Shown: positions 21,882 to 32,291, numbered from the stretch's first letter. The stretch: 64,000 nucleotides of DNA from a virus (IMGVR_UViG_2585427757_000006); one strand, 5' to 3'. The notes: generated by a model from the letters alone, not told the origin. Numbers and translations: made by a program.

Positions 21882-22115
21882 TCATTCAGCATTGCAACCG
21901 ATTGATGAGAAAGCACCTACTCCAACCCATCGCCAGTTATAGATGCTACCCGCTTTGTATAAGGTATAGTCGTTCACTTTTTTAACAGCATATATGGGTA
22001 TGACTGTCTCCTGTCCACCAATGATAGCTTCACCATAACATATAGGTGTCGGCAATTTCTGGCAGCCAGTAAGAGAGAGAACAACAGCTATTGTTAGAAA
22101 TAATCTTTTCATCAT
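21882..22115 (-). CDS. small lipoprotein (candidate receptor-blocking superinfection-exclusion protein)
   Basis: 77-aa ORF with signal peptide plus lipobox LTGC; located immediately downstream of tail-fibre genes. Confidence 0.5.
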   Translation of the reverse strand: MMKRLFLTIAVVLSLTGCQKLPTPICYGEAIIGGQETVIPIYAVKKVNDYTLYKAGSIYNWRWVGVGAFSSIGCNAE

Positions 22116-22122
22116 TTACTCA

Positions 22123-22731
22123 TCAGTTATACAGATTTCTATTTATTACCGGTACTCTGCCATTTACGCTAAAACTATGGCCGCCATTAAGTTGGTTTAC
22201 GAATATCGAGCTAACAGTATTTCCATATGCCGCATATCCATAAACCATTGTCATGGCTCCGCCCGGTACTGGAACAGCGAACACATTCGCATATGTTGGG
22301 ATTATCGCTGGAGGGTAATCAAAAACATGCCCTCCAGAGCTGTTCCACTCCGTATTATTAAGAAAGGTAAATGAAAGTGGGATATTTGCCGTATTATAGA
22401 TTTCCCCCCCTTGTGCATTGAAAAAACTCATGCCCCAAGTTTCTTTTTTGGCTATACCTTTCGAAAATACGTATATCGTGGCACTAGAGTCGCTACCCTG
22501 ACCTCCGAAACTGTAAATCACCTGGTTGTTACGCACTATTCTGTTGGCTATTAATGAAACAGCTTTCGAATAGGCAACAAAAATAATCGGTGAACGATCT
22601 GGAGATATTTTGGTGTTAAACTCTGTCCCGCCGGACAAAGAAACAACCTGCTTTCTCTGAAAAACGATAGGAGACAAAGAAGGAGACATCCAGACCTTCC
22701 CGTCAGATCGATATATCTTGCTTCCGTACAT
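22123..22731 (-). CDS. tail-fibre-associated hypothetical protein
   Basis: 202-aa ORF translationally coupled (TAATG) to upstream ORF; Gly/Ser/Asn-rich. Confidence 0.45.
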   Translation of the reverse strand: MYGSKIYRSDGKVWMSPSLSPIVFQRKQVVSLSGGTEFNTKISPDRSPIIFVAYSKAVSLIANRIVRNNQVIYSFGGQGSDSSATIYVFSKGIAKKETWGMSFFNAQGGEIYNTANIPLSFTFLNNTEWNSSGGHVFDYPPAIIPTYANVFAVPVPGGAMTMVYGYAAYGNTVSSIFVNQLNGGHSFSVNGRVPVINRNLYN

Positions 22732-22985
22732 TATTTTTGAAAAACCAATATGTTTAAATTACCACTAGCTCCAGACCACGAAATGGTATTTCCAGAAACC
22801 GTAAGACTTGTGTACTTTCCATTGGTTACGTCCATTATGTAATAGTCGATTCCCAATCCCGCCTCAACCTCATATGTTCTACTTCCTGAACCAGAGGGAG
22901 TAAAATAATCGAGGTAATAAACAGGGGCCAACGCATTGACCATCTCCTGTCTTGATGGCGACCAAACCTGTGCACCATAGCTCAT
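22731..22985 (-). CDS. tail-fibre-associated hypothetical protein
   Basis: 84-aa ORF downstream of side tail fibre. Confidence 0.4.
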   Translation of the reverse strand: MSYGAQVWSPSRQEMVNALAPVYYLDYFTPSGSGSRTYEVEAGLGIDYYIMDVTNGKYTSLTVSGNTISWSGASGNLNILVFQK

Positions 22986-23045
22986 AAATATATCCTTATA
23001 CTTTTAAGCAGGGGCTGGTTTAGCTCCAGCCCCGATTGAAGTTGT

Positions 23046-26000
23046 TTATTCTTTAGGTGAATTTAACTTCGTTTCAAGCTCCTCAACCCTTTTGGTCAAT
23101 TGCTGAATATGATGAATGAGTGGTACAACCAAACGCTCATACATCACTCCTTCAGCGACCATACCATTTGAGGAAATATCTTCTGGAGAATCATTATTTG
23201 TTGGTTCACGCCAATGGACATATTGCGGGGCAATCTCACCAACCTCTTCAGCAATAAGGCCGTAATACCCCCAATCCTTTCGGTCACCTCGACAAATTGA
23301 ACGATACCAAACAGGTCTTAATGACAAAAGTTCATCAGCATATCGATCTTGTAATGTTTCAATATCCTTTTTATAGCGCCTTGAAGACGTTGAACGCCAA
23401 ACTGTATTGATACCTGGGTTTGGATCAATGTACATATTGGCACCGCTAGTAGTTGTGCCAATATCCCATATAGCAAACCCTCCACTACCGCCTGATTTGA
23501 CAACCAGTGTTTCAGCAACAATATCCAGGTTGCCACTATAGCCTGTCAGTGATGATCTGCTTGCATAGGAGCTTAGAAGGTTTGCTACCTCTGTTTTCGT
23601 GTAAGCATTAAGGTTAGCCGCAGTCAAAGTTATATCGGCAGAGCCATCAAACGCCACACCAGCAATTTTCCTTGCTGTCTGCAATTTTGTGGCGGTTGCG
23701 GCATTACCAGTAGTGTTCTGATTACCAGTTGTATTCACACCAGGGATTGAATCCTTAGCGGTATATACCTGCGCCCACGCTGACCATGCTGCACCTGTGT
23801 TATCTCTTCGTGAGCGAATGAAAACTGGCGCATGTGCACCGCTCGTACCACTCCAGCCAATAAGCAACTCGCCCTCACCAGCAGCACTCGCACCTTTCAT
23901 GTGCAATACGTTGCCATACGTGGTCGGGTAGCTATTGTTGTACGCCTCATACATTTGAATGCCAGCAGTGCCTTGAGTAGAGCCGCTTAACGCCGTAACT
24001 CGGCCACGAGATACCAATGTATTAATGTTGATATCGCCTGAACCATCAAACTTAACACCATTGATGTTTCTCGCTGTTTGCAACTTCGTAGCTGTTGAAG
24101 CATTACCGTTCAAACTACCATTTACGCCACCAGTCACATTTAGTCCATTACCAATTGATACAGCACCGCTGGTATTATTAATTGTAATCGGTCGCAAACC
24201 GTTCCATGAACCTAATGTGTCTCCTGATGCTGTTAGCAGGAAATATGTGTTCGCCCCATCATTACGGATAAAGAACCCATAGTTACCGTAAGCAATGCGG
24301 AAACCATTTGCATATTTTGAAACGATCTCACCAGAAGACGTTACCCCCCCAGATAATGTGCCACCTGAAAGCGGTAATGCTCCTACATCAGAAGCTGTTG
24401 GTTTGTTTCTGGTGTTATAAGAACGACGCCAGCCTGGCGCATAATCACTTCCATTGTACACATAAATAAATTCCGCATTATTAACACCACCATGACCCGA
24501 TGTTGTTGTCGTTGTAACACGAATAGTGTAATGGCTTGTTGCCTTATTACTAAACACCTCAATCACGGAACCAGATAGATCGATCCTACCGCAACCAGTG
24601 TCGTCTATATAATTATTGTTGGCGTAAGCCCATGAGCACCGTGCAATCCAATATTTGTTTGAAAATGCACCCTGATTATTTAGCCACGTTATAAACTGAG
24701 CAGTCGTAAATGCTGTTCCGTTACCACTATTTAACCATCCGGCGGCAGCGGTTGGTGCGTTTATATCAGCCGGCTGAGGCATAAATCCAGTCGTGTAAAC
24801 CTGCTCCCAACCACTTTCAAAACCATAGCCATCTCTTGAGGAACGGTAGAACAGACCACCATTTTTATAGTGAGCTTTAATTTGAAGCGTACGGCAACTA
24901 CCTACACCGGTATAAAAGTTGGCAAGAATATAACTAGCGCCTGCTCTAGTTACATTGTAAGCACCAGATTCAGCATTCCACGGCACGCCACCATCAGCAT
25001 CCGCATATGTATCCGTTGCCCTTCTGGCAAAAGCAGCCACATGCGCGGCGGTTAAAGTGATATCTTTGGAACCATCAAACTCAACACCAGAAACCCGTCT
25101 TGGCGTTTGCAGCTTTGTTGCTGTTAATGCATTACCGTTCAGACTTGCGGACAGTTTGGTTCCAATAACCAGTTCGCCGGTTGCGTTATCAATAGCAAAC
25201 GGTCTTAATGTATTCCAGCCACCATAAACATCACCTTGATTGGTAAGCAGCAGGTAAGTTTTAGCGCCATCATTACGCCATAATGCCCCATACTCCCCAC
25301 CTATCATTCGAATCTGATTACCACCACGCGCTACAATTTCGTCTGTGGCAAAAAGTTTTTTGCACGACAAGTTATCGTTAACGATTAACGAATGAGACTC
25401 ATAAAAACCACGCCCACTCTTAAAATCAAGGATAACGTCCGCCGCGATACATTCAATCGCCGGATTTGTTGCCCCAAACTTATAGGTCGTATCATTAACA
25501 ACGAGATCCGCACCAGGTGCGGATATTGACAGGCCATCTTCAATAAACGCAAAAACAGGGAAAGCAGCACCATCAACATAGAACACAGAGCGCAAATCAT
25601 CGCCCTTATTACTCATCATTATTGAGTGGATGGCTCGTTCATTGTTTTGATATTGCCAGAACATTCCATAAGCATAACGCCCCCTGTCAGTCCAGCCACC
25701 AGGCATAACAAATCCGTTAAACTCGCAGTTATTCATCGGATCGCCTGCGGTTCGCGTTGCCGTGGTGATAATGACCCTTGATGCCAGTTCGCTTACTGAG
25801 CCAGCAGAACGCATAACAACAACAGGGTAATATTTTCCAGATGTTGCACCTGCAGGAGCGTTAACCCGCACATAACGCATACCACGCTTATCAGCAAAGT
25901 CTGTTTTACTGACCGCGTTAATGTTGTTCAGGAAGCGTCCCTTATCGGGTATATCAGCGCCGTTCTGGTCTTTCTGCAGACGTTTCTCTGCATTGTCATA

Positions 26001-27467
26001 GGCTGATTTTACTGCCTTTGGCGTTGCCGCCAGCGTCTCAGACGTACTGTTGGTCGCACTGCTGAGCTGTACTATCCCCTTTTTCGTCGTACTTGCATCC
26101 TCAAGCGCCACGGCGGATGCAATATCCTCTGCCCGTTTTGCCGCTGTCTCGGCGCGCGTTGCCGCGGATTCCGCCGTACTTTTGCTCTGTGCTGCCGCCG
26201 TCGCACTGCCAGCTGCCTCTGTCGCCTTCGTGGATGCTGTCGTGGCGCTGCCCTTCGCTGCGGACGCTTGTCTGGTCGCCTCATCTTTTGAAGCAGACGC
26301 CGATGATGCCGATGACGCTGCCGAACTGGCGGACGATGCGGCTGCCGTTTTTGAGGATTCTGCACGGGTTTCCGACGCTTTCGCGTTCGTTTCGGATGTC
26401 TTCGCTGCGGAAGCAGACCTCGCTGCTGCGCTGGCCTGTTCAGTGGCTTCGCCAGCCTTCGTTGTGGCTGTTGAAGCAGACGATGCGGCACTTTCTGCCG
26501 ATTTTCCGGCGGCGGTGGCACTGGCTGAGGCCTGCCCGGCACTTGTTGACGCGGCACTTGCAGACGACGCAGCCGCTGTTTTTGAGCCTGCCGCAGCCGA
26601 GGCGCTCTGTCCCGCTGCCGTTTCAGAAGACCTGGCGTTCGTCTCGGACGTTTTTGCCGCCTTCGCGGAATTTCCTGCCGCCGTTGCCGAGGAAGCGGCA
26701 TTACTGGCGCTCGAGGCTGCGTTCGTTTCTGATGATTTCGCTGCCTCTTTTGAGGCCGCCGCATCCCGGGCTGAGGTGGCAGCTTCTGACGCCTTCGTGG
26801 TCGCGGTGGATGCAGAAGTGGCTGCAGATTTTTGTGACGCTGCAGCATTCGTTTCAGATTTTTTCGCAGCAGTTGCACTCGCACTTGCGGCACTTTGTGA
26901 GGATGCCGCAGCGGATGCACTTTGAGACGCTTGAGAGGCTTTTTCTCCAGCGGCATTGGCGCTTTTTGCTGCTGCGGCAGCACTGGCCGCCGCCTCACGA
27001 GCTTTGTCGCCAGCAGCATCAATCGCGTCAGTGTTATTTTTATACCACTCAACGTTTTCGTTGTGCTCGTTGACGATCTGCATTAGCGGCTTAACGGTCA
27101 CTTCTGTACCGTCTTCACGCTCGATTGTCACCTCATCCAGCGCAGTCAACCAACTGCGTATGGACTTGGAATCAGCCGACATACGCGACATTAGCGCAGT
27201 AAAACGCGCGCTAAACTGTGTTAAGTCGCCTTCATAGGTCGTAATGATTCGGCACGGAACCTCAGACTGAGTTTCGCCGGTATAAGGTTCTGAGAGAACA
27301 ATATTCGTATCGCTTATTACGCGCTTGATCTCATACAGCTTATTGTCGGGGCCAATGACGATCATCCCCGGCAACACACCATTAGCTGTTACGTTCCAGG
27401 CTGTCCCTGCCCCAACCAGAGTATTGCTACCATGTGTAAATGTGATAGTACCTTCCCTGTACCACAT
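23046..27467 (-). CDS. side tail fibre protein with Ala/Ser/Thr-rich repeat region, phage-fibre repeats and C-terminal S74-type intramolecular chaperone
   Basis: 1473-aa ORF; three copies of ...TATKLQTAR..G..FDGS.DI.. motif; C-terminal DIETLQDRY...GYYGLIAEEV...SSNGMVAEGVMYERL resembles chaperone-of-endosialidase domain. Confidence 0.8.
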   Translation of the reverse strand: MWYREGTITFTHGSNTLVGAGTAWNVTANGVLPGMIVIGPDNKLYEIKRVISDTNIVLSEPYTGETQSEVPCRIITTYEGDLTQFSARFTALMSRMSADSKSIRSWLTALDEVTIEREDGTEVTVKPLMQIVNEHNENVEWYKNNTDAIDAAGDKAREAAASAAAAAKSANAAGEKASQASQSASAAASSQSAASASATAAKKSETNAAASQKSAATSASTATTKASEAATSARDAAASKEAAKSSETNAASSASNAASSATAAGNSAKAAKTSETNARSSETAAGQSASAAAGSKTAAASSASAASTSAGQASASATAAGKSAESAASSASTATTKAGEATEQASAAARSASAAKTSETNAKASETRAESSKTAAASSASSAASSASSASASKDEATRQASAAKGSATTASTKATEAAGSATAAAQSKSTAESAATRAETAAKRAEDIASAVALEDASTTKKGIVQLSSATNSTSETLAATPKAVKSAYDNAEKRLQKDQNGADIPDKGRFLNNINAVSKTDFADKRGMRYVRVNAPAGATSGKYYPVVVMRSAGSVSELASRVIITTATRTAGDPMNNCEFNGFVMPGGWTDRGRYAYGMFWQYQNNERAIHSIMMSNKGDDLRSVFYVDGAAFPVFAFIEDGLSISAPGADLVVNDTTYKFGATNPAIECIAADVILDFKSGRGFYESHSLIVNDNLSCKKLFATDEIVARGGNQIRMIGGEYGALWRNDGAKTYLLLTNQGDVYGGWNTLRPFAIDNATGELVIGTKLSASLNGNALTATKLQTPRRVSGVEFDGSKDITLTAAHVAAFARRATDTYADADGGVPWNAESGAYNVTRAGASYILANFYTGVGSCRTLQIKAHYKNGGLFYRSSRDGYGFESGWEQVYTTGFMPQPADINAPTAAAGWLNSGNGTAFTTAQFITWLNNQGAFSNKYWIARCSWAYANNNYIDDTGCGRIDLSGSVIEVFSNKATSHYTIRVTTTTTSGHGGVNNAEFIYVYNGSDYAPGWRRSYNTRNKPTASDVGALPLSGGTLSGGVTSSGEIVSKYANGFRIAYGNYGFFIRNDGANTYFLLTASGDTLGSWNGLRPITINNTSGAVSIGNGLNVTGGVNGSLNGNASTATKLQTARNINGVKFDGSGDININTLVSRGRVTALSGSTQGTAGIQMYEAYNNSYPTTYGNVLHMKGASAAGEGELLIGWSGTSGAHAPVFIRSRRDNTGAAWSAWAQVYTAKDSIPGVNTTGNQNTTGNAATATKLQTARKIAGVAFDGSADITLTAANLNAYTKTEVANLLSSYASRSSLTGYSGNLDIVAETLVVKSGGSGGFAIWDIGTTTSGANMYIDPNPGINTVWRSTSSRRYKKDIETLQDRYADELLSLRPVWYRSICRGDRKDWGYYGLIAEEVGEIAPQYVHWREPTNNDSPEDISSNGMVAEGVMYERLVVPLIHHIQQLTKRVEELETKLNSPKE

Positions 27468-27560
27468 GTTGAATATGCTCCTTGATTTGGCGGGTTATCC
27501 TTGCCCGCCATTAAGTAAATACTTACCTATTTTTACCGATATAAAATTTTTTTTCCACCA

Positions 27561-30500
27561 TCACAGACGGCCAATTCTTACTCGTAGGACGTTGTTATCG
27601 TCATAAACGTCAATCCGCTGACCATTTATAACCAATCGCCCATTGCCGCCGCTATTACCGTTGATCTCCAGCGTTCCATTTTTGCCGAACCGCCATCCAG
27701 ATCTACCGCTAACAAAATTGGTAGATTGCAGATCGCCTACTTTTGCATTGGTGATTGTGCCATCCTTGATATACGCTCCATTCATATAGGCGATACTGTT
27801 TTCGATAACAAATGGCGTTGTGATCTTCCCGTTAACAGAGTTGACCAAACCAAACCTGTCCGCCTGAACCAAAAACTGAGATAGCCCAGTGGTGTCAATA
27901 CCAAGCGCAATACCGGCAACATACTTCTGCCCTCCGCTCGTTGAAGTCTCCATTTTCAACGTCCACGCGGTTGACACTTTTTTGTTGGTATCAGCAATAG
28001 CTGTTGCCTGCTGTTGAATTGTCGCGGTATTTCCATTCACCTCTGCTTTCAGAGTATCGATTCGCCCACTCAGAGCATTATCTGCCTGCGTTCTCGCTTT
28101 CGTTTCAGTTGTGACCGCCGCGGAAATGTTGGCTGCCGTTTGAGACTCTAAGTTTGTGATTTGAGTCGCCAATGCAGCATCTTGCTCTGTACGCGTTTTC
28201 GTTTCGGTTGCTACAGCCGCTTTAATATCCTCTTTGTATTGAGAGGTCAGCTTGGTGATCTGAGACGACAACGCCGAGTCAGCATCAGTTCGAGCCTGCG
28301 TTTCAACTGCAACGGCCGCACTAATATCTTTCGCTGTCTGTGCTTTTAAACTTGAAACCTCTTTTGTTAAAGCGGTATCACCATCTGCACGAGCCGTTGT
28401 TTCTCTGGCAAGAGACGCCTTGAGATCATTAGCTTTTGCTGTAAGAGACGTAATCTGGGTAGACAATGCACTATCGGCATCAGTCCTTGCTTTTGTCTCT
28501 ACAGCAACCGCTGCGGCAATATCAGTTCCGGTTTGTGCTCGCAGGCTGTTAATTTCTCGTGAGAGCGCCTGGTCAGCACTTGCTCTGGCCTCCTGCTCCT
28601 GAGTGATGGCAGCGGATATATCACCGTCAACCTTTGACTGAAGCTGGTTTATTTGTTTGGCTAACGCAGAGTCCCCGCTTGCTCGGGCCTCCTGCTCACT
28701 ACGTATTGCAGCAGAAATATCATCATCAACCTTTGCCTGAAGTTGGGTGATCTGGCTTGCCAGAGCCGAATCTTCCGTTACTCGGGCTTCTTGCTCTTCC
28801 TTAATAGCTGCGACGATATCGTTGCTTACTTTCGACTCAAGCTGAGTGATCTGTGTCGTCAGAGCTTCATCGGCAGATGTACGAGCCTCCTGCTCTGTAC
28901 TAATCGCCGCGCTGATATCTCCTTCAAACTTAGATTGCAGCTGAGTGACACGCTTTGCCAACGCTTCATCGCCATCGGCACGAGCGGTGGACTCTTCCAG
29001 AATACTGGCCTTAATGTCTTCGCCAATTTCTACGCGAATTTCCTCAACCTTCGTGGCCATTGCAGACATATCATCAGCAAAGGTTTTCTGTGTTGTTGCG
29101 ATCTTCGCGTTATTGACCATCTGCTTGTGCTGGTCTTCATCTTGACGAAGAGCCAGGTCAATATTTGTTTTGGCCAAAGCCTCAATGTTCGTAGTCAGTT
29201 CTGCACTGGCACGATCGACCTCTGCAACCGTCTTTTTCATTTCTTCAACGGCAGCGGAGCTTTCCTCTACCGTTGACTGCAACACTTCCAGTTGTTTAGC
29301 GTTTGCAGCATCCCCTTCAACACGAGCCTCGCTTTCCTTAGCAATAAGAGCCGCCGCTTCGTCTCTTGCAGCCTTTATTGCCTCGACTGTATTAGCGAGA
29401 GCTTTATCGTGTTCAGATACGGTGTTTTCGATTTCAACAATTGCAGCATCAGTAGCATCAATTTTTTCAAACGCTTCATTGACCTTGTCGATCGTTGCCG
29501 AAACCTCACCTTTAAGCTCGGTTTGTGCGTTCTCCAAAGCATCGCTACGCTCGTTGAATTTTATTTCAAAACCCGCGAGGTTATCGCTGAACTGCTTATC
29601 TAATTCAGCTATATCTTCCTTAACGTCGTTTACCGACCCCTCCAAAGATTCGACGCTCTGGTTGATATGCTCATTTAACTCGTCAACTGCTTCTTGAGAG
29701 ACTTTGCTGTTGATGTCCTCAAGCAGAGCCTGACCAAGCTCGGAAGATGTAATTTTGCCAGTCAGGAACGACAGTACATCGCGAGTTGTCGCCTCTGTTC
29801 CCAAGTTTGAGTTCGGAGGACTTAACATACCTCGCTTGTTCGATGCTCGAACCCAGTAATACCACGTTTCGCTATCCCCAAGACCAGCATGTGTAAAGGT
29901 GGTGCTTGCAGACTCTGCGATCAGTTTCGCCGTATCCAGATTGTTGGTCTGGGATGCGTAAACATTAATGTGATCAAGGTCTACCGAATCTGGATTAACC
30001 CAATTCAGTATCACATTACGATAGTCTCCAACGGCCGTTAATGACGTTGGGGCATCTGGCGGTGTCATTGTGCCCAACACCTGATAAACGGTACTGATAA
30101 TCTCTGTTTTTTTACCGTTGAATGAAACCGCATACAGCTGGAAGTCGTAGCGTCCATTCTCCGCGACATTAACGATTTCGTATTGCTCTTCGGTTACACG
30201 CGCCGATTGCCAGTTCGATACATTGTTTTCATCAGAACGTCGCCAACTGATCCAATACTCTGGAGATTTCCCTTCCCATGTTGCAGTCAGTTTTACTGAC
30301 AGGTTGCCCGGGCTTGAGAGGTAAGTCCCTTCAGTGATTTGCAAATTAGACGGCTTGGAGTAAGTCGGGTCCAATACCGTCGTATTCTGCGGGATAAGCG
30401 TTGCACCATTGTCGATCGCCTCATATTTAGACGGATTGTTTTCAACAGCGGTGATGTCAAAGCTACCCGACGTTTCCCCCTGAGCGATGTTAACGATGCG

Positions 30501-32291
30501 AACGCGCATAGGTTCGAGATCTGGTTCTGTAATTGTCCAGACACCGTTCAAAACAGGCGTTTCCGCTGACGACAGGGCTTTTGAAAACGTAACCTTTGTT
30601 ATGTTTTCGCCAGTTTCAAGAACATCGCGCTCAACGATTTTGCCTTCCTGATTCAATATCCGAATAAAGCTGCCGCTTTTAGCTAACGACACAGGCGCAT
30701 CGAGAGTGATGCTGTTTTTGGTAAACTCCACAATTCGACCGGAGTTACGTTTACCTGCACGATATTTGTTCTGAATCAGAACGGTTTCACCAGGCATCAG
30801 AAATGAGGCGTCTAAGCCGGCAGTAAATGTAATTACATCCGACTCCATTCTGGCGGTATACAAAAGCCACAAACCAACTCGGTGAGCCTGGCCTCGGCTT
30901 GTACATCCAAATGCTACGACTTCTGTTTTACGCTCACCATAACGGCGCATTGCGTCCTGATCTTCAACGTATTCGATGTTTTGCTTATAACCGTCCTCCT
31001 TGTTGTTGTAGGTTACGAGCGCAACGGATGGGCGATCTTTACGCGCAGAACCTTTATAGGTAAACAGTCCATCTTTGACGTTGGAGTTGGTAAACATCAT
31101 TACCGGATCTGATGGGCTATCCTGCATGATGTTAACCATGCCACCAGCCCAAAACACCATGCCGCGGAATGCACCGGCAATATCCTGAATTAATCGGTAT
31201 GCGTCTTGTCGACTGGTGATCTGCGTATTGATTGCAAAGCGTTTCTCTTTACCCCCAAAGCCATCATCGACCTCTTCGTCACAATATCGACCAATCTGGT
31301 AGAGCTGGCCGAGGTCAATCATGGATTCCGACACAAATTGCCCAAGACCATACCGAGTATTGGTAAGCAAATCGTAGAGAATCCACGCAGGGTTTGAAGA
31401 AGACAACAGCTTAAAAGTACCGTCCCATACGCCGACATAAGTATTGGTGTATTCGTTGTAGTTTGACGGTACTCGGATTTTGATACCGCGCACCAAATAC
31501 GAACGGGAAGGCATTGTGCTACCAAACTGCTCTGAATTGACCTTCAAGCCAACAAGAGCAGAGTTAGGGTAGTTCATTGGCGTGTCGACAATCTCACCGA
31601 TGGAATCAACCCATGTGTCGTTGTAGAGGTACTGGCTACTATTATCATCTGTAAGACGAATCACCCTAACCTTGTATGCACGACCAGGCTTAGGCAGTTT
31701 CAGCTCATAGCTACGGTAATACACGCCGGTTTTCTTTGCCGTTAGCGTGATATCAACGCTTTTCTCACCTTCTGCCACTACATCAGAAAATGTTGCGTCT
31801 GCGTTGGCGATCTGGAATTTGTACTTCACCGTAGTGTCATTTGTATCGCCAGAGCTTTTATCAACGCTACGTAAAGAGGGGAATTTCATGATGACACGAA
31901 CGCGATCAGCTTCATCGTTATCGATTGAAACCGTAACGTCGTGGGTTTTTTTAAGGTGAATATTTACGGACTTAGGCGTTTCAACAAAATCAAAACCAGC
32001 CATTGGCGTCTGGTCTTGTGAGCCGTCACGAAAATCCCATGTAATACCGCTGAAGTTGGAAGAGCCATCTTCATTCAAGATCGGTAAATCGTCGATGAAG
32101 ATCGACTTTGCGCCATTTACCAGGCCACCGATAACCCCCTCGCCAAGAAGGTCGAGGATGGCTGCCATAGCACGAGAATTGACAGTATCATCAGCTTCAA
32201 CCGGGGTACGGCTGGAGCTTTTACTTTTCTTGCCACCAGCACCGGCAATAAGAAGCGGTAATTTTTTCTTCTTGAACTGTTCCATGTCCAA
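27561..32291 (-). CDS. gpJ-like host specificity / central tail fibre protein with C-terminal coiled-coil tandem repeats
   Basis: 1576-aa ORF; lambda-J-like N-terminus and position ahead of I/K/L/M homologues; about 12 tandem ~30-aa repeats (EQEAR..AD.AL..QI..L.SKV..DI.AAI). Confidence 0.8.
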   Translation of the reverse strand: MDMEQFKKKKLPLLIAGAGGKKSKSSSRTPVEADDTVNSRAMAAILDLLGEGVIGGLVNGAKSIFIDDLPILNEDGSSNFSGITWDFRDGSQDQTPMAGFDFVETPKSVNIHLKKTHDVTVSIDNDEADRVRVIMKFPSLRSVDKSSGDTNDTTVKYKFQIANADATFSDVVAEGEKSVDITLTAKKTGVYYRSYELKLPKPGRAYKVRVIRLTDDNSSQYLYNDTWVDSIGEIVDTPMNYPNSALVGLKVNSEQFGSTMPSRSYLVRGIKIRVPSNYNEYTNTYVGVWDGTFKLLSSSNPAWILYDLLTNTRYGLGQFVSESMIDLGQLYQIGRYCDEEVDDGFGGKEKRFAINTQITSRQDAYRLIQDIAGAFRGMVFWAGGMVNIMQDSPSDPVMMFTNSNVKDGLFTYKGSARKDRPSVALVTYNNKEDGYKQNIEYVEDQDAMRRYGERKTEVVAFGCTSRGQAHRVGLWLLYTARMESDVITFTAGLDASFLMPGETVLIQNKYRAGKRNSGRIVEFTKNSITLDAPVSLAKSGSFIRILNQEGKIVERDVLETGENITKVTFSKALSSAETPVLNGVWTITEPDLEPMRVRIVNIAQGETSGSFDITAVENNPSKYEAIDNGATLIPQNTTVLDPTYSKPSNLQITEGTYLSSPGNLSVKLTATWEGKSPEYWISWRRSDENNVSNWQSARVTEEQYEIVNVAENGRYDFQLYAVSFNGKKTEIISTVYQVLGTMTPPDAPTSLTAVGDYRNVILNWVNPDSVDLDHINVYASQTNNLDTAKLIAESASTTFTHAGLGDSETWYYWVRASNKRGMLSPPNSNLGTEATTRDVLSFLTGKITSSELGQALLEDINSKVSQEAVDELNEHINQSVESLEGSVNDVKEDIAELDKQFSDNLAGFEIKFNERSDALENAQTELKGEVSATIDKVNEAFEKIDATDAAIVEIENTVSEHDKALANTVEAIKAARDEAAALIAKESEARVEGDAANAKQLEVLQSTVEESSAAVEEMKKTVAEVDRASAELTTNIEALAKTNIDLALRQDEDQHKQMVNNAKIATTQKTFADDMSAMATKVEEIRVEIGEDIKASILEESTARADGDEALAKRVTQLQSKFEGDISAAISTEQEARTSADEALTTQITQLESKVSNDIVAAIKEEQEARVTEDSALASQITQLQAKVDDDISAAIRSEQEARASGDSALAKQINQLQSKVDGDISAAITQEQEARASADQALSREINSLRAQTGTDIAAAVAVETKARTDADSALSTQITSLTAKANDLKASLARETTARADGDTALTKEVSSLKAQTAKDISAAVAVETQARTDADSALSSQITKLTSQYKEDIKAAVATETKTRTEQDAALATQITNLESQTAANISAAVTTETKARTQADNALSGRIDTLKAEVNGNTATIQQQATAIADTNKKVSTAWTLKMETSTSGGQKYVAGIALGIDTTGLSQFLVQADRFGLVNSVNGKITTPFVIENSIAYMNGAYIKDGTITNAKVGDLQSTNFVSGRSGWRFGKNGTLEINGNSGGNGRLVINGQRIDVYDDNNVLRVRIGRL

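What the first reader, a model, noticed from the sequence alone, without database searches (positions are those of the whole stretch)
23046..27467. Side tail fibre with extreme Ala/Ser/Thr-rich repeats and S74-type auto-chaperone
The central low-complexity region (about 26000-27050) is GC-rich and generates three long spurious ORFs in other frames. Three phage-fibre repeats and a C-terminal intramolecular chaperone domain suggest a trimeric fibre that self-cleaves. Repeat number may be recombinationally variable.
Basis: partly seen in the sequence, partly recalled or inferred. Interest (0 to 1): 0.4.

Follow-up and report, generated by a model that had tools for sequence, protein, structure and literature searches.

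The report
Mosaic self-cleaving phage side tail fibre
This is an intact but ordinary 1473-residue tail-fibre gene of an SSU5-like E. coli phage-plasmid. It combines a long Ala/Ser coiled-coil shaft shared with phage lambda's side fibre, swapped-in middle modules, and a C-terminal self-cleaving folding chaperone.

Summary
ORF 23046-27467 (minus strand, 1473 aa) is a real tail-fibre gene. It lies between a J-like central-fibre gene and a Cor/holin/endolysin block, in the same order as in Salmonella phage SSU5.

- **Ala/Ser/Thr region.** Residues 141-480 are 70% Ala/Ser/Thr, and the DNA is 60-63% GC against about 45% nearby. It is not a DNA tandem repeat. It is 44 unbroken heptads (aa 148-455, Ala in 43 of 44 at one position), homologous to the trimeric proximal coiled coil of lambda Stf.
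- **Alternative-frame ORFs.** All three exist. They are by-products of composition and codon-junction bias.
- **C-terminus.** Peptidase_S74 scores above Pfam's cut-off. The T1360-S1361...K1366 pattern matches T5 pb1, and S1361 and K1366 are invariant in 74 homologues. The AlphaFold model matches only intramolecular-chaperone structures.
- **Repeats.** There is one Phage_fiber_2 repeat, not three. The three repeats are a different motif (GNAxTATKLQT...FDGS).
- **Length variation.** Coil length is constant in seven close relatives. Rare variants lack exactly 15, 16 or 30 heptads.
- **Mosaicism.** The main variability is module exchange. This allele is a recombinant of a phage-plasmid fibre and a lambdoid stf, with one crossover in the shared coil DNA and the other just after the first conserved motif.

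Self-cleavage and trimer formation are inferred, not shown. The gene is a known kind and of low novelty.

The parts
23046..27467 (-). Complete tail-fibre gene, 1473 aa (153.8 kDa), stop TAA at 23046-23048
   Evidence: ORF list; PHROG tail-fibre families; RBS AAGGAG upstream; mass
27048..27467 (-). N-terminal domain, aa 1-140. SSU5-type, presumed tail-attachment domain. No Pfam match, and not the lambda phage_tail_N domain
   Evidence: 99-100% DNA identity to phage-plasmid relatives and 73% to SSU5_021. No Pfam family on the fragment. AF2 model is low confidence (pLDDT 56.7) and the fold search is not significant
26103..27026 (-). Ala/Ser coiled-coil shaft, aa 148-455: 44 uninterrupted heptads, consensus S-A-[S/T]-A-A-A-[S/T], about 46 nm if fully helical
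   Evidence: Fourier power at periods 3.5 and 7.0 far above 500 shuffles. Register table: Ala 43/44, Ser 33/44, Ala 30/44. Homologous to lambdoid Stf, whose residues 102-393 form a trimeric coiled coil (PMC12617516)
25971..26093 (-). Single Phage_fiber_2 (PF03406) repeat, aa 459-499
   Evidence: E 2.7e-22, 78.5 bits on a 111-aa fragment. Missed in the full-length scan. Relatives P0121 and P0123 carry two copies
25191..25487 (-). Gp34_trimer domain 1, aa 661-759
   Evidence: Pfam E 2.4e-28 on fragment
25038..25136 (-). Conserved motif copy 1 (GNALTATKLQTPRRVSGVEFDGSKDITL), aa 778-810. The right-hand recombination junction lies just after it
   Evidence: Identity to the lambdoid parent falls off at gene nt 2415-2624, and identity to the phage-plasmid parent resumes at gene nt 2332
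24378..25034 (-). Domains shared with phage Mu tail-fibre protein S/S', aa 812-1030
   Evidence: PDB 8ju3 E 2.4e-74, stretches 812-909 and 902-1030
24180..24479 (-). Gp34_trimer domain 2, aa 997-1096. Internal duplicate of domain 1
   Evidence: Pfam. T4 gp34 4uxe E 9e-23 and Mu S 5yvq E 1e-44. aa 707-805 against 1044-1148: 51% identity, E 3e-31
24009..24107 (-). Conserved motif copy 2, aa 1121-1153
23595..23708 (-). Conserved motif copy 3, aa 1254-1291
23388..23594 (-). Distal tip, aa 1292-1360. Predicted C-terminal end of the mature fibre and presumed receptor-binding part. Structure unresolved
   Evidence: pLDDT 45-72 in the monomer model. Conserved together with the chaperone in about 231-aa proteins of T1-like coliphages
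23049..23387 (-). Intramolecular chaperone / auto-cleavage domain (Peptidase_S74), aa 1361-1473, 13.3 kDa. Dyad S1361 (23385-23387) and K1366 (23370-23372)
   Evidence: Pfam above cut-off. S1361, S1362 and K1366 invariant in 74 sequences. pLDDT 90-97. Foldseek top hits 7dc3, 3gud, 3gw6. Weak sequence match to 8hqz_d, deposited as L-shaped tail fiber assembly
26050..27073 (.). Three overlapping alternative-frame ORFs (26050-26925 +, 26072-27052 -, 26093-27073 +), judged to be non-genes
   Evidence: Listed. Two stay open in synonymous-codon permutations. The third depends on NCT|A junction avoidance that also holds in the rest of the gene, and it is interrupted in SSU5 and PhiR34_1

Best explanation
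The gene encodes the side (lateral) tail fibre of an SSU5-like E. coli phage-plasmid.

**Inferred architecture, as a homotrimer:**
- An N-terminal domain (aa 1-140) anchors the fibre to the tail tip region.
- A shaft of about 46 nm follows, made of 44 perfect heptads with Ala and Ser in the core positions.
- Next come one Phage_fiber_2 repeat and a series of beta-rich modules: two Gp34_trimer domains, Mu S-like domains, and three copies of a GNAxTATKLQT...FDGS linker motif.
- A short distal tip (aa 1292-1360) ends the mature fibre.

**Inferred maturation.** The last 113 residues form an S74-type intramolecular chaperone that nucleates trimer folding from the C-terminus. Once the trimer is correctly folded, the S1361/K1366 dyad cuts the chain after T1360. 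This releases a 13.3-kDa fragment and unmasks the receptor-binding tip. That is why no separate tail-fibre assembly gene or gp38-type adhesin gene follows the fibre gene.

**Origin of this allele (shown by DNA identity).** It is a recent recombinant:
- gene nt 1 to about 1200 and nt 2332-4422 come from a phage-plasmid fibre;
- nt about 1200-2450 come from a lambdoid prophage stf;
- the left crossover lies inside the shared coiled-coil DNA and the right one just after the first conserved motif.

**Shown:** ORF, domains, heptad register, conserved dyad, fold match, mosaic breakpoints.
**Inferred:** trimer formation, cleavage, anchoring site, receptor binding.
For: - **Identity and context.** ORF and neighbours are. 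Cor, holin and endolysin lie downstream. SSU5 has the same gene order. Near-identical genes occur on non-mobilizable E. coli plasmids of about 110 kb (mostly rep_cluster_488, some IncFIB) and in phages Cyrano and CMS-2020a.
- **Coil.** Composition is. The 3.5/7.0 periodicity has A-power 7.45 against a shuffle maximum of 1.61. There are no DNA tandem arrays. Lambda Stf residues 102-393 form a trimeric coiled coil (PMC12617516).
- **Modules.**
- **Chaperone.** Pfam scores 26.9 and 28.5 bits against a cut-off of 22. S1361, S1362 and K1366 are invariant, and R1358, S1359 and T1360 nearly so, in 74 homologues down to 27% identity. The model has pLDDT above 90 over the domain. The only Foldseek PDB hits above noise are MyRF ICA 7dc3 (E 5.5e-5, prob 1.0), GA-1 gp12 chaperone 3gud (prob 0.99) and endoNF chaperone 3gw6. 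The Ser-x4-Lys spacing equals S911/K916 of endoNF (PMC8326128) and Thr1263-Ser1264...Lys1269 of T5 pb1 (PMC4690869).
- **No separate chaperone gene.** Only 60 nt separate the stop from the next gene. Alleles without S74 in L006, L007 and SSU5 are followed by a receptor-recognising adhesin gene.
- **Mosaic.**
Against: - No experiment shows cleavage, trimerisation or virion incorporation.
- The S74 HMM score is only about 5 bits above threshold, and direct sequence matches to solved chaperone-containing chains are weak (8hqz_d, E 0.021).
- The structure was predicted as a monomer, although the domain is an intertwined trimer. TM-scores to PDB chaperones are modest (0.37-0.46 on the query).
- The tip (aa 1292-1360) and the N-terminal domain were not modelled with confidence, so the attachment site and the receptor are unknown.
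- Whether this particular phage-plasmid is inducible was not examined.
Confidence: 0.85

Rival explanations
1. The C-terminal S74-like domain is kept only as a trimerisation or capping module. It does not cleave, so the fibre carries it permanently.
For: The HMM score is close to threshold. Cleavage was not tested.
Against: Ser1361 and Lys1366 are invariant in 74 homologues. They have the spacing and the preceding Thr of T5 pb1, in which S1264A blocks cleavage (PMC4690869). In T5 the uncleaved protein does not compete for the receptor (same paper), so a permanently retained chaperone would be expected to mask the tip.
Confidence: 0.07
2. The Ala/Ser/Thr region is a disordered low-complexity spacer, or a contingency locus whose length changes rapidly, rather than a fixed coiled-coil rod.
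For: Composition is extreme. Four distant relatives have shorter versions. Short imperfect DNA repeats are present (families D2 and D3).
Against: There are 44 heptads with no phase break. Periodicity is far above the shuffles. TRF finds no array scoring above 46. Seven relatives have zero indels in aa 1-480, with 97-100% aa identity except one 100-aa block at 92%. The homologous lambda segment is modelled as a trimeric coiled coil in a cryo-EM/cryo-ET study.
Confidence: 0.05
3. One of the long alternative-frame ORFs, above all 26093-27073 on the plus strand, is a real overlapping gene.
For: That antisense frame has 0 stops where synonymous-codon permutations give a mean of 8.4 (0 of 500 permutations reach 0; 0 of 1000 reach the observed open length).
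Against: The cause is avoidance of NCT|A codon junctions. The same avoidance holds outside the region (16 observed against 29.6 expected) and in relatives. The frame has 4 stops in SSU5 and 1 in PhiR34_1. The other two frames stay open in the permutations. The products are Arg/Pro/Leu/Gln-rich or Ala/Asp/Phe/Val-rich low-complexity strings.
Confidence: 0.02

Closest known systems
Phage lambda (Ur-lambda) and lambdoid side tail fibre Stf, e.g. Escherichia phage PhiR34_1 stf
   Same: Gene nt 525-2651 are 95.6% identical to PhiR34_1 stf, and 99-100% identical over nt about 1260-2400. Both have the same Ala/Ser heptad coiled coil, a Gp34_trimer domain, and a gene position after J.
   Different: The N-terminal anchor is not the phage_tail_N (PF08400) collar domain. 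The distal third is different. Lambdoid Stf ends in Collar/Phage_fiber repeats and needs a separate Tfa. Here an S74 intramolecular chaperone replaces it.
Phage T5 L-shaped tail fibre pb1 (PDB 4UW8)
   Same: It is a side fibre of a siphovirus, about 1400 aa long. Its C-terminal ~130-residue intramolecular chaperone has a Thr-Ser...Lys catalytic pattern and is cut off after folding (PMC4690869).
   Different: No detectable sequence similarity outside the chaperone. T5 pb1 is not among the PDB sequence hits. pb1 has no Ala/Ser coiled-coil shaft and a different tip fold.
Fibre genes of SSU5-like phage-plasmids (SSU5_021; pTW10722_119, pECOH89, phage Cyrano)
   Same: Same N-terminal domain and coil, and the same locus. 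pTW10722_119 has the same tip plus S74 domain at 97-100% aa identity.
   Different: In pTW10722_119, the Shigella sonnei plasmid p38, pECOH89 and pECAZ162_2 (1385-1432 aa), aa about 490-780 belong to an unrelated module with two Phage_fiber_2 repeats. SSU5, pAMPD1 and pYUYZPE244-1 have other tips followed by a gp38-type adhesin gene. Cyrano has another tip.
Endosialidase endoNF, GA-1 gp12 and MyRF ICA domain (Peptidase_S74 / intramolecular chaperone auto-cleavage domain)
   Same: Fold match, Ser-x4-Lys dyad, and a C-terminal position after a trimeric fibre.
   Different: The passenger is a fibre rather than a tailspike enzyme or transcription factor. Sequence identity is only 11-22%.
Phage Mu tail fibre S (gp49) and T4 gp34 proximal long tail fibre
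   Same: Shared domains: Mu S/S' (8ju3 E 2.4e-74; 5yvq E 1e-44) and the T4 gp34 trimerisation domain (4uxe E 9e-23).
   Different: Those are fibres of contractile-tailed phages that use separate chaperones. Only internal modules are shared.

Membership tests
Peptidase_S74 / intramolecular chaperone auto-cleavage (ICA) domain | Match to the family HMM above the curated threshold | tested here: met
   PF13884: 26.9 bits (full length) and 28.5 bits (fragment) against a cut-off of 22, aa 1361-1417, profile positions 1-57 of 58
Peptidase_S74 / intramolecular chaperone auto-cleavage (ICA) domain | Catalytic Ser-Lys dyad with Ser-x4-Lys spacing at the start of the domain | tested here: met
   S1361 and K1366 are invariant in 74 homologues. 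Same spacing as endoNF S911/K916 and T5 pb1 S1264/K1269, with the preceding Thr
Peptidase_S74 / intramolecular chaperone auto-cleavage (ICA) domain | Mixed alpha/beta body ending in a long C-terminal helix (trimeric coiled coil) with the ICA fold | tested here: met
   AF2 monomer model has pLDDT 90-97 over the domain and a terminal helix at 158-180 of the fragment. Foldseek: 7dc3 E 5.5e-5, 3gud prob 0.99, 3gw6. No other fold reaches E < 1. The trimer was not modelled
Peptidase_S74 / intramolecular chaperone auto-cleavage (ICA) domain | Autoproteolytic release of the domain after trimer folding | not testable with these tools
   Needs protein expression or virion mass spectrometry
Lambda-type side tail fibre (Stf) | N-terminal phage_tail_N (PF08400) collar domain | tested here: not met
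   No PF08400 match in aa 1-140 even at E<=1. The lambdoid PhiR34_1 Stf scores E 1.6e-71
Lambda-type side tail fibre (Stf) | Proximal Ala/Ser-rich trimeric coiled coil homologous to Stf residues 102-393 | tested here: met
   Up to 99-100% DNA identity to a lambdoid stf within the coil. Heptad register shown and also seen in lambdoid P0190. The trimeric state is taken from PMC12617516
Lambda-type side tail fibre (Stf) | Separate tail-fibre assembly gene (tfa) immediately downstream | tested here: not met
   The next genes are phrog_557 (84 aa), phrog_425 (202 aa) and Cor. No Tfa family was found. PhiR34_1 has tfa
SSU5-like phage-plasmid tail fibre | SSU5-type N-terminal domain, and a locus between the J-like gene and the Cor/holin/endolysin block | tested here: met
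   Gene nt 1-741 are 73% identical to SSU5_021. Gene order is identical. Close relatives lie on phage-plasmids of about 110 kb
One copy, aa 459-499, 78.5 bits, seen only on a fragment. Absent from the full-length scan.
Gp34_trimer (PF21446) domain-containing fibres | Match to the T4 gp34 C-terminal trimerisation domain | tested here: met
   Two copies, aa 661-759 and 997-1096. PDB 4uxe/5nxf E about 1e-22

The most novel reading that the evidence does not exclude
The Ala/Ser heptad shaft may be more than a spacer. It could be a conserved, length-quantised adaptor shared by phage-plasmids and lambdoid prophages. Its nearly identical DNA would serve as the homology tract for swapping receptor-binding modules between the two kinds of element. 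Its length would change only in whole heptads: 15, 16 or 30 in the four SSU5-type variants seen. That would tune fibre reach without breaking the coiled-coil register.
Probability: 0.2. Interest if true: 0.4.

Novelty: new member of a known kind. Interest (0 to 1): 0.2.

Why it matters
Tail fibres set host range. This allele documents a recent exchange of a module of about 1.2 kb between a lambdoid prophage stf and an SSU5-like phage-plasmid. These phage-plasmids are common in clinical E. coli and Shigella. One crossover lies in the conserved coiled-coil DNA and the other just after a conserved linker motif.

There are two practical lessons:
- A full-length HMM scan missed a 78-bit Phage_fiber_2 match, presumably because of the low-complexity shaft.
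- The gene tables of several relatives appear to start the fibre CDS after the shaft.

Otherwise the gene is built entirely from known modules and raises no new biological question.

Tried and rejected
- **Full-length Pfam and NCBIfam scans.** Pfam gave only Gp34_trimer and S74. NCBIfam gave nothing. Splitting the protein was needed to recover Phage_fiber_2.
- **Self-BLAST of aa 481-1473.** It printed no off-diagonal hits. Pairwise segment BLAST worked.
- **TRF and exact-seed repeat search in the coil.** Only tiny arrays (score 46 or less) and 66-88% identical 26-29-nt repeats were found. The DNA tandem-repeat or slippage reading was rejected.
- **N-terminal domain.** The AF2 model from a shallow 14-sequence alignment was poor (pLDDT 56.7). 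Foldseek gave nothing below E 0.01; the best hits were small beta-barrels of phi92 and K1F tailspikes at E 0.015-0.04. The attachment mode is left open.
- **Direct sequence search of the C-terminus against PDB.** It gave only a weak hit (8hqz_d, E 0.021). The fold search was needed.
- **Overlapping-gene hypothesis for the antisense ORF.** Tested by synonymous permutation and by comparison with relatives, and rejected.
- **'Always whole heptads'.** This holds for the four SSU5-type length variants. It does not hold for two lambdoid variants, which have deletions of 3 and 36 aa, so it is stated only as a tendency.
- **Promoter/terminator scan.** Nothing above shuffle expectation that matters.
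- **The search for homologous proteins.** In both searches every listed hit was shorter than about 1.75 times the query length. Full-length relatives therefore had to come from the plasmid and phage collections.

Full report
**1. What is there**

The window carries one uninterrupted ORF at 23046-27467 on the minus strand (ATG start, 1473 aa, 153.8 kDa). An AAGGAG ribosome-binding site lies 10 nt before the ATG.

The upstream gene is a 1576-aa J-type central fibre/tip protein, matching FNIII-A_GpJ, Phage-tail_3 and Phage_Tail_Tip. Downstream lie, in order:
- an 84-aa gene (phrog_557);
- a 202-aa gene (phrog_425);
- a Cor-like superinfection-exclusion lipoprotein;
- a phrog_5093 gene (function unknown) in the position of the SSU5 and Cyrano holin;
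- an endolysin.

This is exactly the order of genes 020-027 of Salmonella phage SSU5. Megablast finds the gene on 513 plasmid records. The close full-length relatives are about 110 kb and nearly all non-mobilizable, from E. coli and Shigella. It also finds the gene in phages Cyrano and CMS-2020a. The element is therefore an SSU5-like phage-plasmid, and the gene is its lateral fibre.

**2. The Ala/Ser/Thr region**

Residues 141-480 (window 26028-27047) are 36.8% Ala, 22.1% Ser and 11.2% Thr. The DNA is 60-63% GC, against 42-47% in the neighbouring parts of the gene.

At the DNA level it is not a tandem repeat. TRF finds only four micro-arrays with scores of 46 or less. The direct repeats are 26-29 nt long and 66-88% identical.

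At the protein level it is strikingly regular. The Ala indicator has Fourier power 7.45 at period 3.5 and 3.88 at period 7.0, while the maximum over 500 shuffles is 1.61 and 1.17. Written in sevens, aa 148-455 form 44 consecutive heptads with no phase shift. One position is Ala in 43 of 44 heptads, a second is Ser in 33 of 44, and a third is Ala in 30 of 44.

This is the sequence signature of a coiled coil with a small-residue core. The segment is homologous to lambdoid Stf, with up to 99-100% DNA identity. Residues 102-393 of Ur-lambda Stf were modelled as the proximal trimeric coiled coil of the side fibre in a cryo-EM/cryo-ET study (PMC12617516). If fully helical, the shaft is about 46 nm long (inference).

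**3. The three alternative-frame ORFs**

All three exist. I permuted synonymous codons within the region to test whether they are expected.
- The same-strand +1 frame stays open. Only 8 of 340 codons have T at the second position, so stop codons cannot form.
- One antisense frame also stays open.
- The third frame, antisense at 26093-27073, has 0 stops against 8.4 expected. None of 500 permutations reached 0.

The cause of the third case is avoidance of NCT|A codon junctions. The same avoidance operates in the rest of the gene (16 observed against 29.6 expected) and in relatives. The frame is interrupted 4 times in SSU5 and once in PhiR34_1. I conclude that all three are by-products of composition and junction bias, not genes.

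**4. Domain map**

A full-length hmmscan reports only Gp34_trimer (E 4e-56, two stretches) and Peptidase_S74. Scanning fragments adds one Phage_fiber_2 repeat at aa 459-499 (78.5 bits). It also places the Gp34_trimer domains at aa 661-759 and 997-1096. The full-length scan missed Phage_fiber_2 even at E<=10, presumably because of bias filtering against the low-complexity shaft.

PDB sequence searches link several parts to solved fibres:
- aa 438-518, 812-909 and 902-1030 to phage Mu fibre protein S/S' (8ju3, E 2.4e-74);
- aa 1006-1116 to Mu S (5yvq);
- aa 1030-1121 to T4 gp34 (4uxe).

There is an internal duplication: aa 707-805 against aa 1044-1148, 51% identity, E 3e-31. A 30-38-aa motif, GNAxTATKLQTxRxxxGVxFDGSxDI, occurs three times, at aa 778, 1121 and 1254. 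They are not Pfam Phage_fiber_2.

**5. The C-terminal chaperone**

- **HMM.** Peptidase_S74 matches aa 1361-1417, covering 57 of the 58 profile positions, above the curated cut-off.
- **Conservation.** In an alignment of 74 homologues down to 27% identity, S1361, S1362 and K1366 are invariant. R1358, S1359 and T1360 are nearly so.
- **Catalytic pattern.** T1360-S1361-x4-K1366 reproduces Thr1263-Ser1264...Lys1269 of T5 pb1. There the S1264A mutant blocks cleavage, and the Ser leaves with the chaperone (PMC4690869). It also reproduces S911/K916 of endoNF (PMC8326128).
- **Fold.** An AlphaFold2 model of aa 1290-1473 has pLDDT 90-97 over the chaperone. In Foldseek against the PDB, the only matches above noise are the MyRF ICA domain (7dc3, E 5.5e-5, probability 1.0), the GA-1 gp12 chaperone (3gud, probability 0.99) and the endoNF chaperone (3gw6).
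- **Gene context.** Only 60 nt separate the stop codon from the next gene, and no Tfa or gp38-type gene follows. Alleles with other tips (SSU5, pAMPD1, pYUYZPE244-1) are followed by a receptor-recognising adhesin gene. The lambdoid Stf is followed by tfa.

The predicted products are a 140.5-kDa mature chain ending at T1360 and a 13.3-kDa released fragment. Cleavage itself is inferred.

**6. Variability among relatives**

Seven fetched relatives show no indel in aa 1-480, with 97-100% aa identity apart from one 100-aa block at 92%.

Seventeen proteins with the SSU5-type N-terminus could be scored by the position of the first Phage_fiber_2 motif. It lies at aa 463 in 13, at 358 in 2, at 351 in 1 and at 253 in 1. 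These offsets correspond to deletions of 105, 112 and 210 aa, which are 15, 16 and 30 whole heptads. The 112-aa deletion joins two AAK(S/T)SETN repeats. Two lambdoid variants have deletions of 3 and 36 aa, so whole-heptad change is a tendency and not a rule.

The larger source of diversity is module replacement at aa about 490-780, at about 825-890, and at the tip.

**7. This allele is a recombinant**

Sliding identity shows three blocks:
- gene nt 1 to about 1155 are 95-100% (mostly 98-100%) identical to pTW10722_119;
- gene nt about 1155-2414 are 99-100% identical, apart from two 105-nt windows at 97-98%, to the stf of lambdoid phage PhiR34_1;
- gene nt 2332-4422 are again 97.9% identical to pTW10722_119.

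The left junction (nt about 1155-1260) lies inside the shared coil DNA. The right junction (nt about 2415-2520) lies just after motif copy 1, which both parents carry.

In PLSDB, a probe spanning both junctions is covered at 98-100% only by lambdoid-type records annotated as prophage tail fibre N-terminal domain-containing protein. The phage-plasmids among the listed hits cover 68% of it, at about 83% identity. Recombination between conserved motifs that swaps adhesin specificity is a long-known principle for T-even fibres (Tetart et al. 1998, cited in PMC10879196).

**8. Verdict**

- the region is a heptad coiled coil rather than a DNA repeat;
- there is one Phage_fiber_2 repeat, and the three repeats belong to a different motif;
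- shaft length varies rarely, and module swapping is the dominant source of variation.

Every module belongs to a known family, and near-identical pieces are already in public records. The item is a new recombinant member of a known kind and of low interest. Still open are the attachment mode of the N-terminal domain, the structure of the tip and its receptor, and experimental proof of cleavage.

Noticed in passing
window 27561-32291 (-): The J-like central fibre protein (1576 aa) carries a very long Ala/Glu/Gln-rich repeat insertion between its fn3 region and the Phage_Tail_Tip domain. The insertion spans roughly aa 830-1400 in units of about 33 aa. TRF sees a 99-nt period at 28579-28796. SSU5's J gene is about 190 codons shorter.
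   Followed up: partly
window 21882-22115 (-): A Cor-like superinfection-exclusion lipoprotein (77 aa, phrog_1119, E 8e-30) sits between the fibre cluster and the lysis genes, as SSU5_025 does. From my own knowledge, untested here: Cor proteins are known to block FhuA-dependent phages, which hints that the J tip may use FhuA.
   Followed up: no
window 22123-22985 (-): Two small genes (84 aa, phrog_557 'outer membrane protein'; 202 aa, phrog_425 'membrane associated protein') directly follow the fibre. They are also present after the differently tipped SSU5 fibre and after the pTW10722_119-type fibres, but were not seen after the Cyrano fibre. They have no Pfam match and their function is unknown.
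   Followed up: partly
window 25971-26093 (-), aa 459-499: Method artefact. hmmscan on the whole 1473-aa protein does not report Phage_fiber_2 even at E<=10, yet the same segment scores 78.5 bits (E 2.7e-22) when a 111-aa fragment is scanned. Low-complexity shafts can hide real domains.
   Followed up: yes
window 26093-27073 (+), and the whole fibre gene: There is strong avoidance of NCT|A codon junctions: 0 observed against 8.7 expected in the shaft, and 16 against 29.6 in the rest of the gene. The same holds in SSU5 and lambdoid homologues. This keeps an antisense frame open for 326 codons.
   Followed up: yes
L001, L003, L004, L005 (plasmid relatives): The distributed gene tables start the fibre CDS at internal Met455, just after the coiled coil, although an intact 1385-1432-aa ORF begins about 1360 nt upstream. 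The N-terminal domain and shaft are therefore unannotated in those tables. The PLSDB tables are incomplete, so the original records may differ.
   Followed up: partly
window 27489-27509 and 23011-23033: GC-rich hairpins flank the gene: GGCGGG-9 nt-CCCGCC just upstream of the RBS, and GGGGCTGG-7 nt-CCAGCCCC 13 nt after the stop codon. Neither has a T-run, and the terminator scan called neither.
   Followed up: partly
proteins P0019-P0036; phage hits H100-H112: T1-like coliphages (tonn, BEBK14, swan01, JLBYU series) encode the distal tip plus S74 chaperone as separate proteins of about 231 aa, 44-55% identical to aa about 1290-1473. So the same module exists both fused and stand-alone.
   Followed up: no
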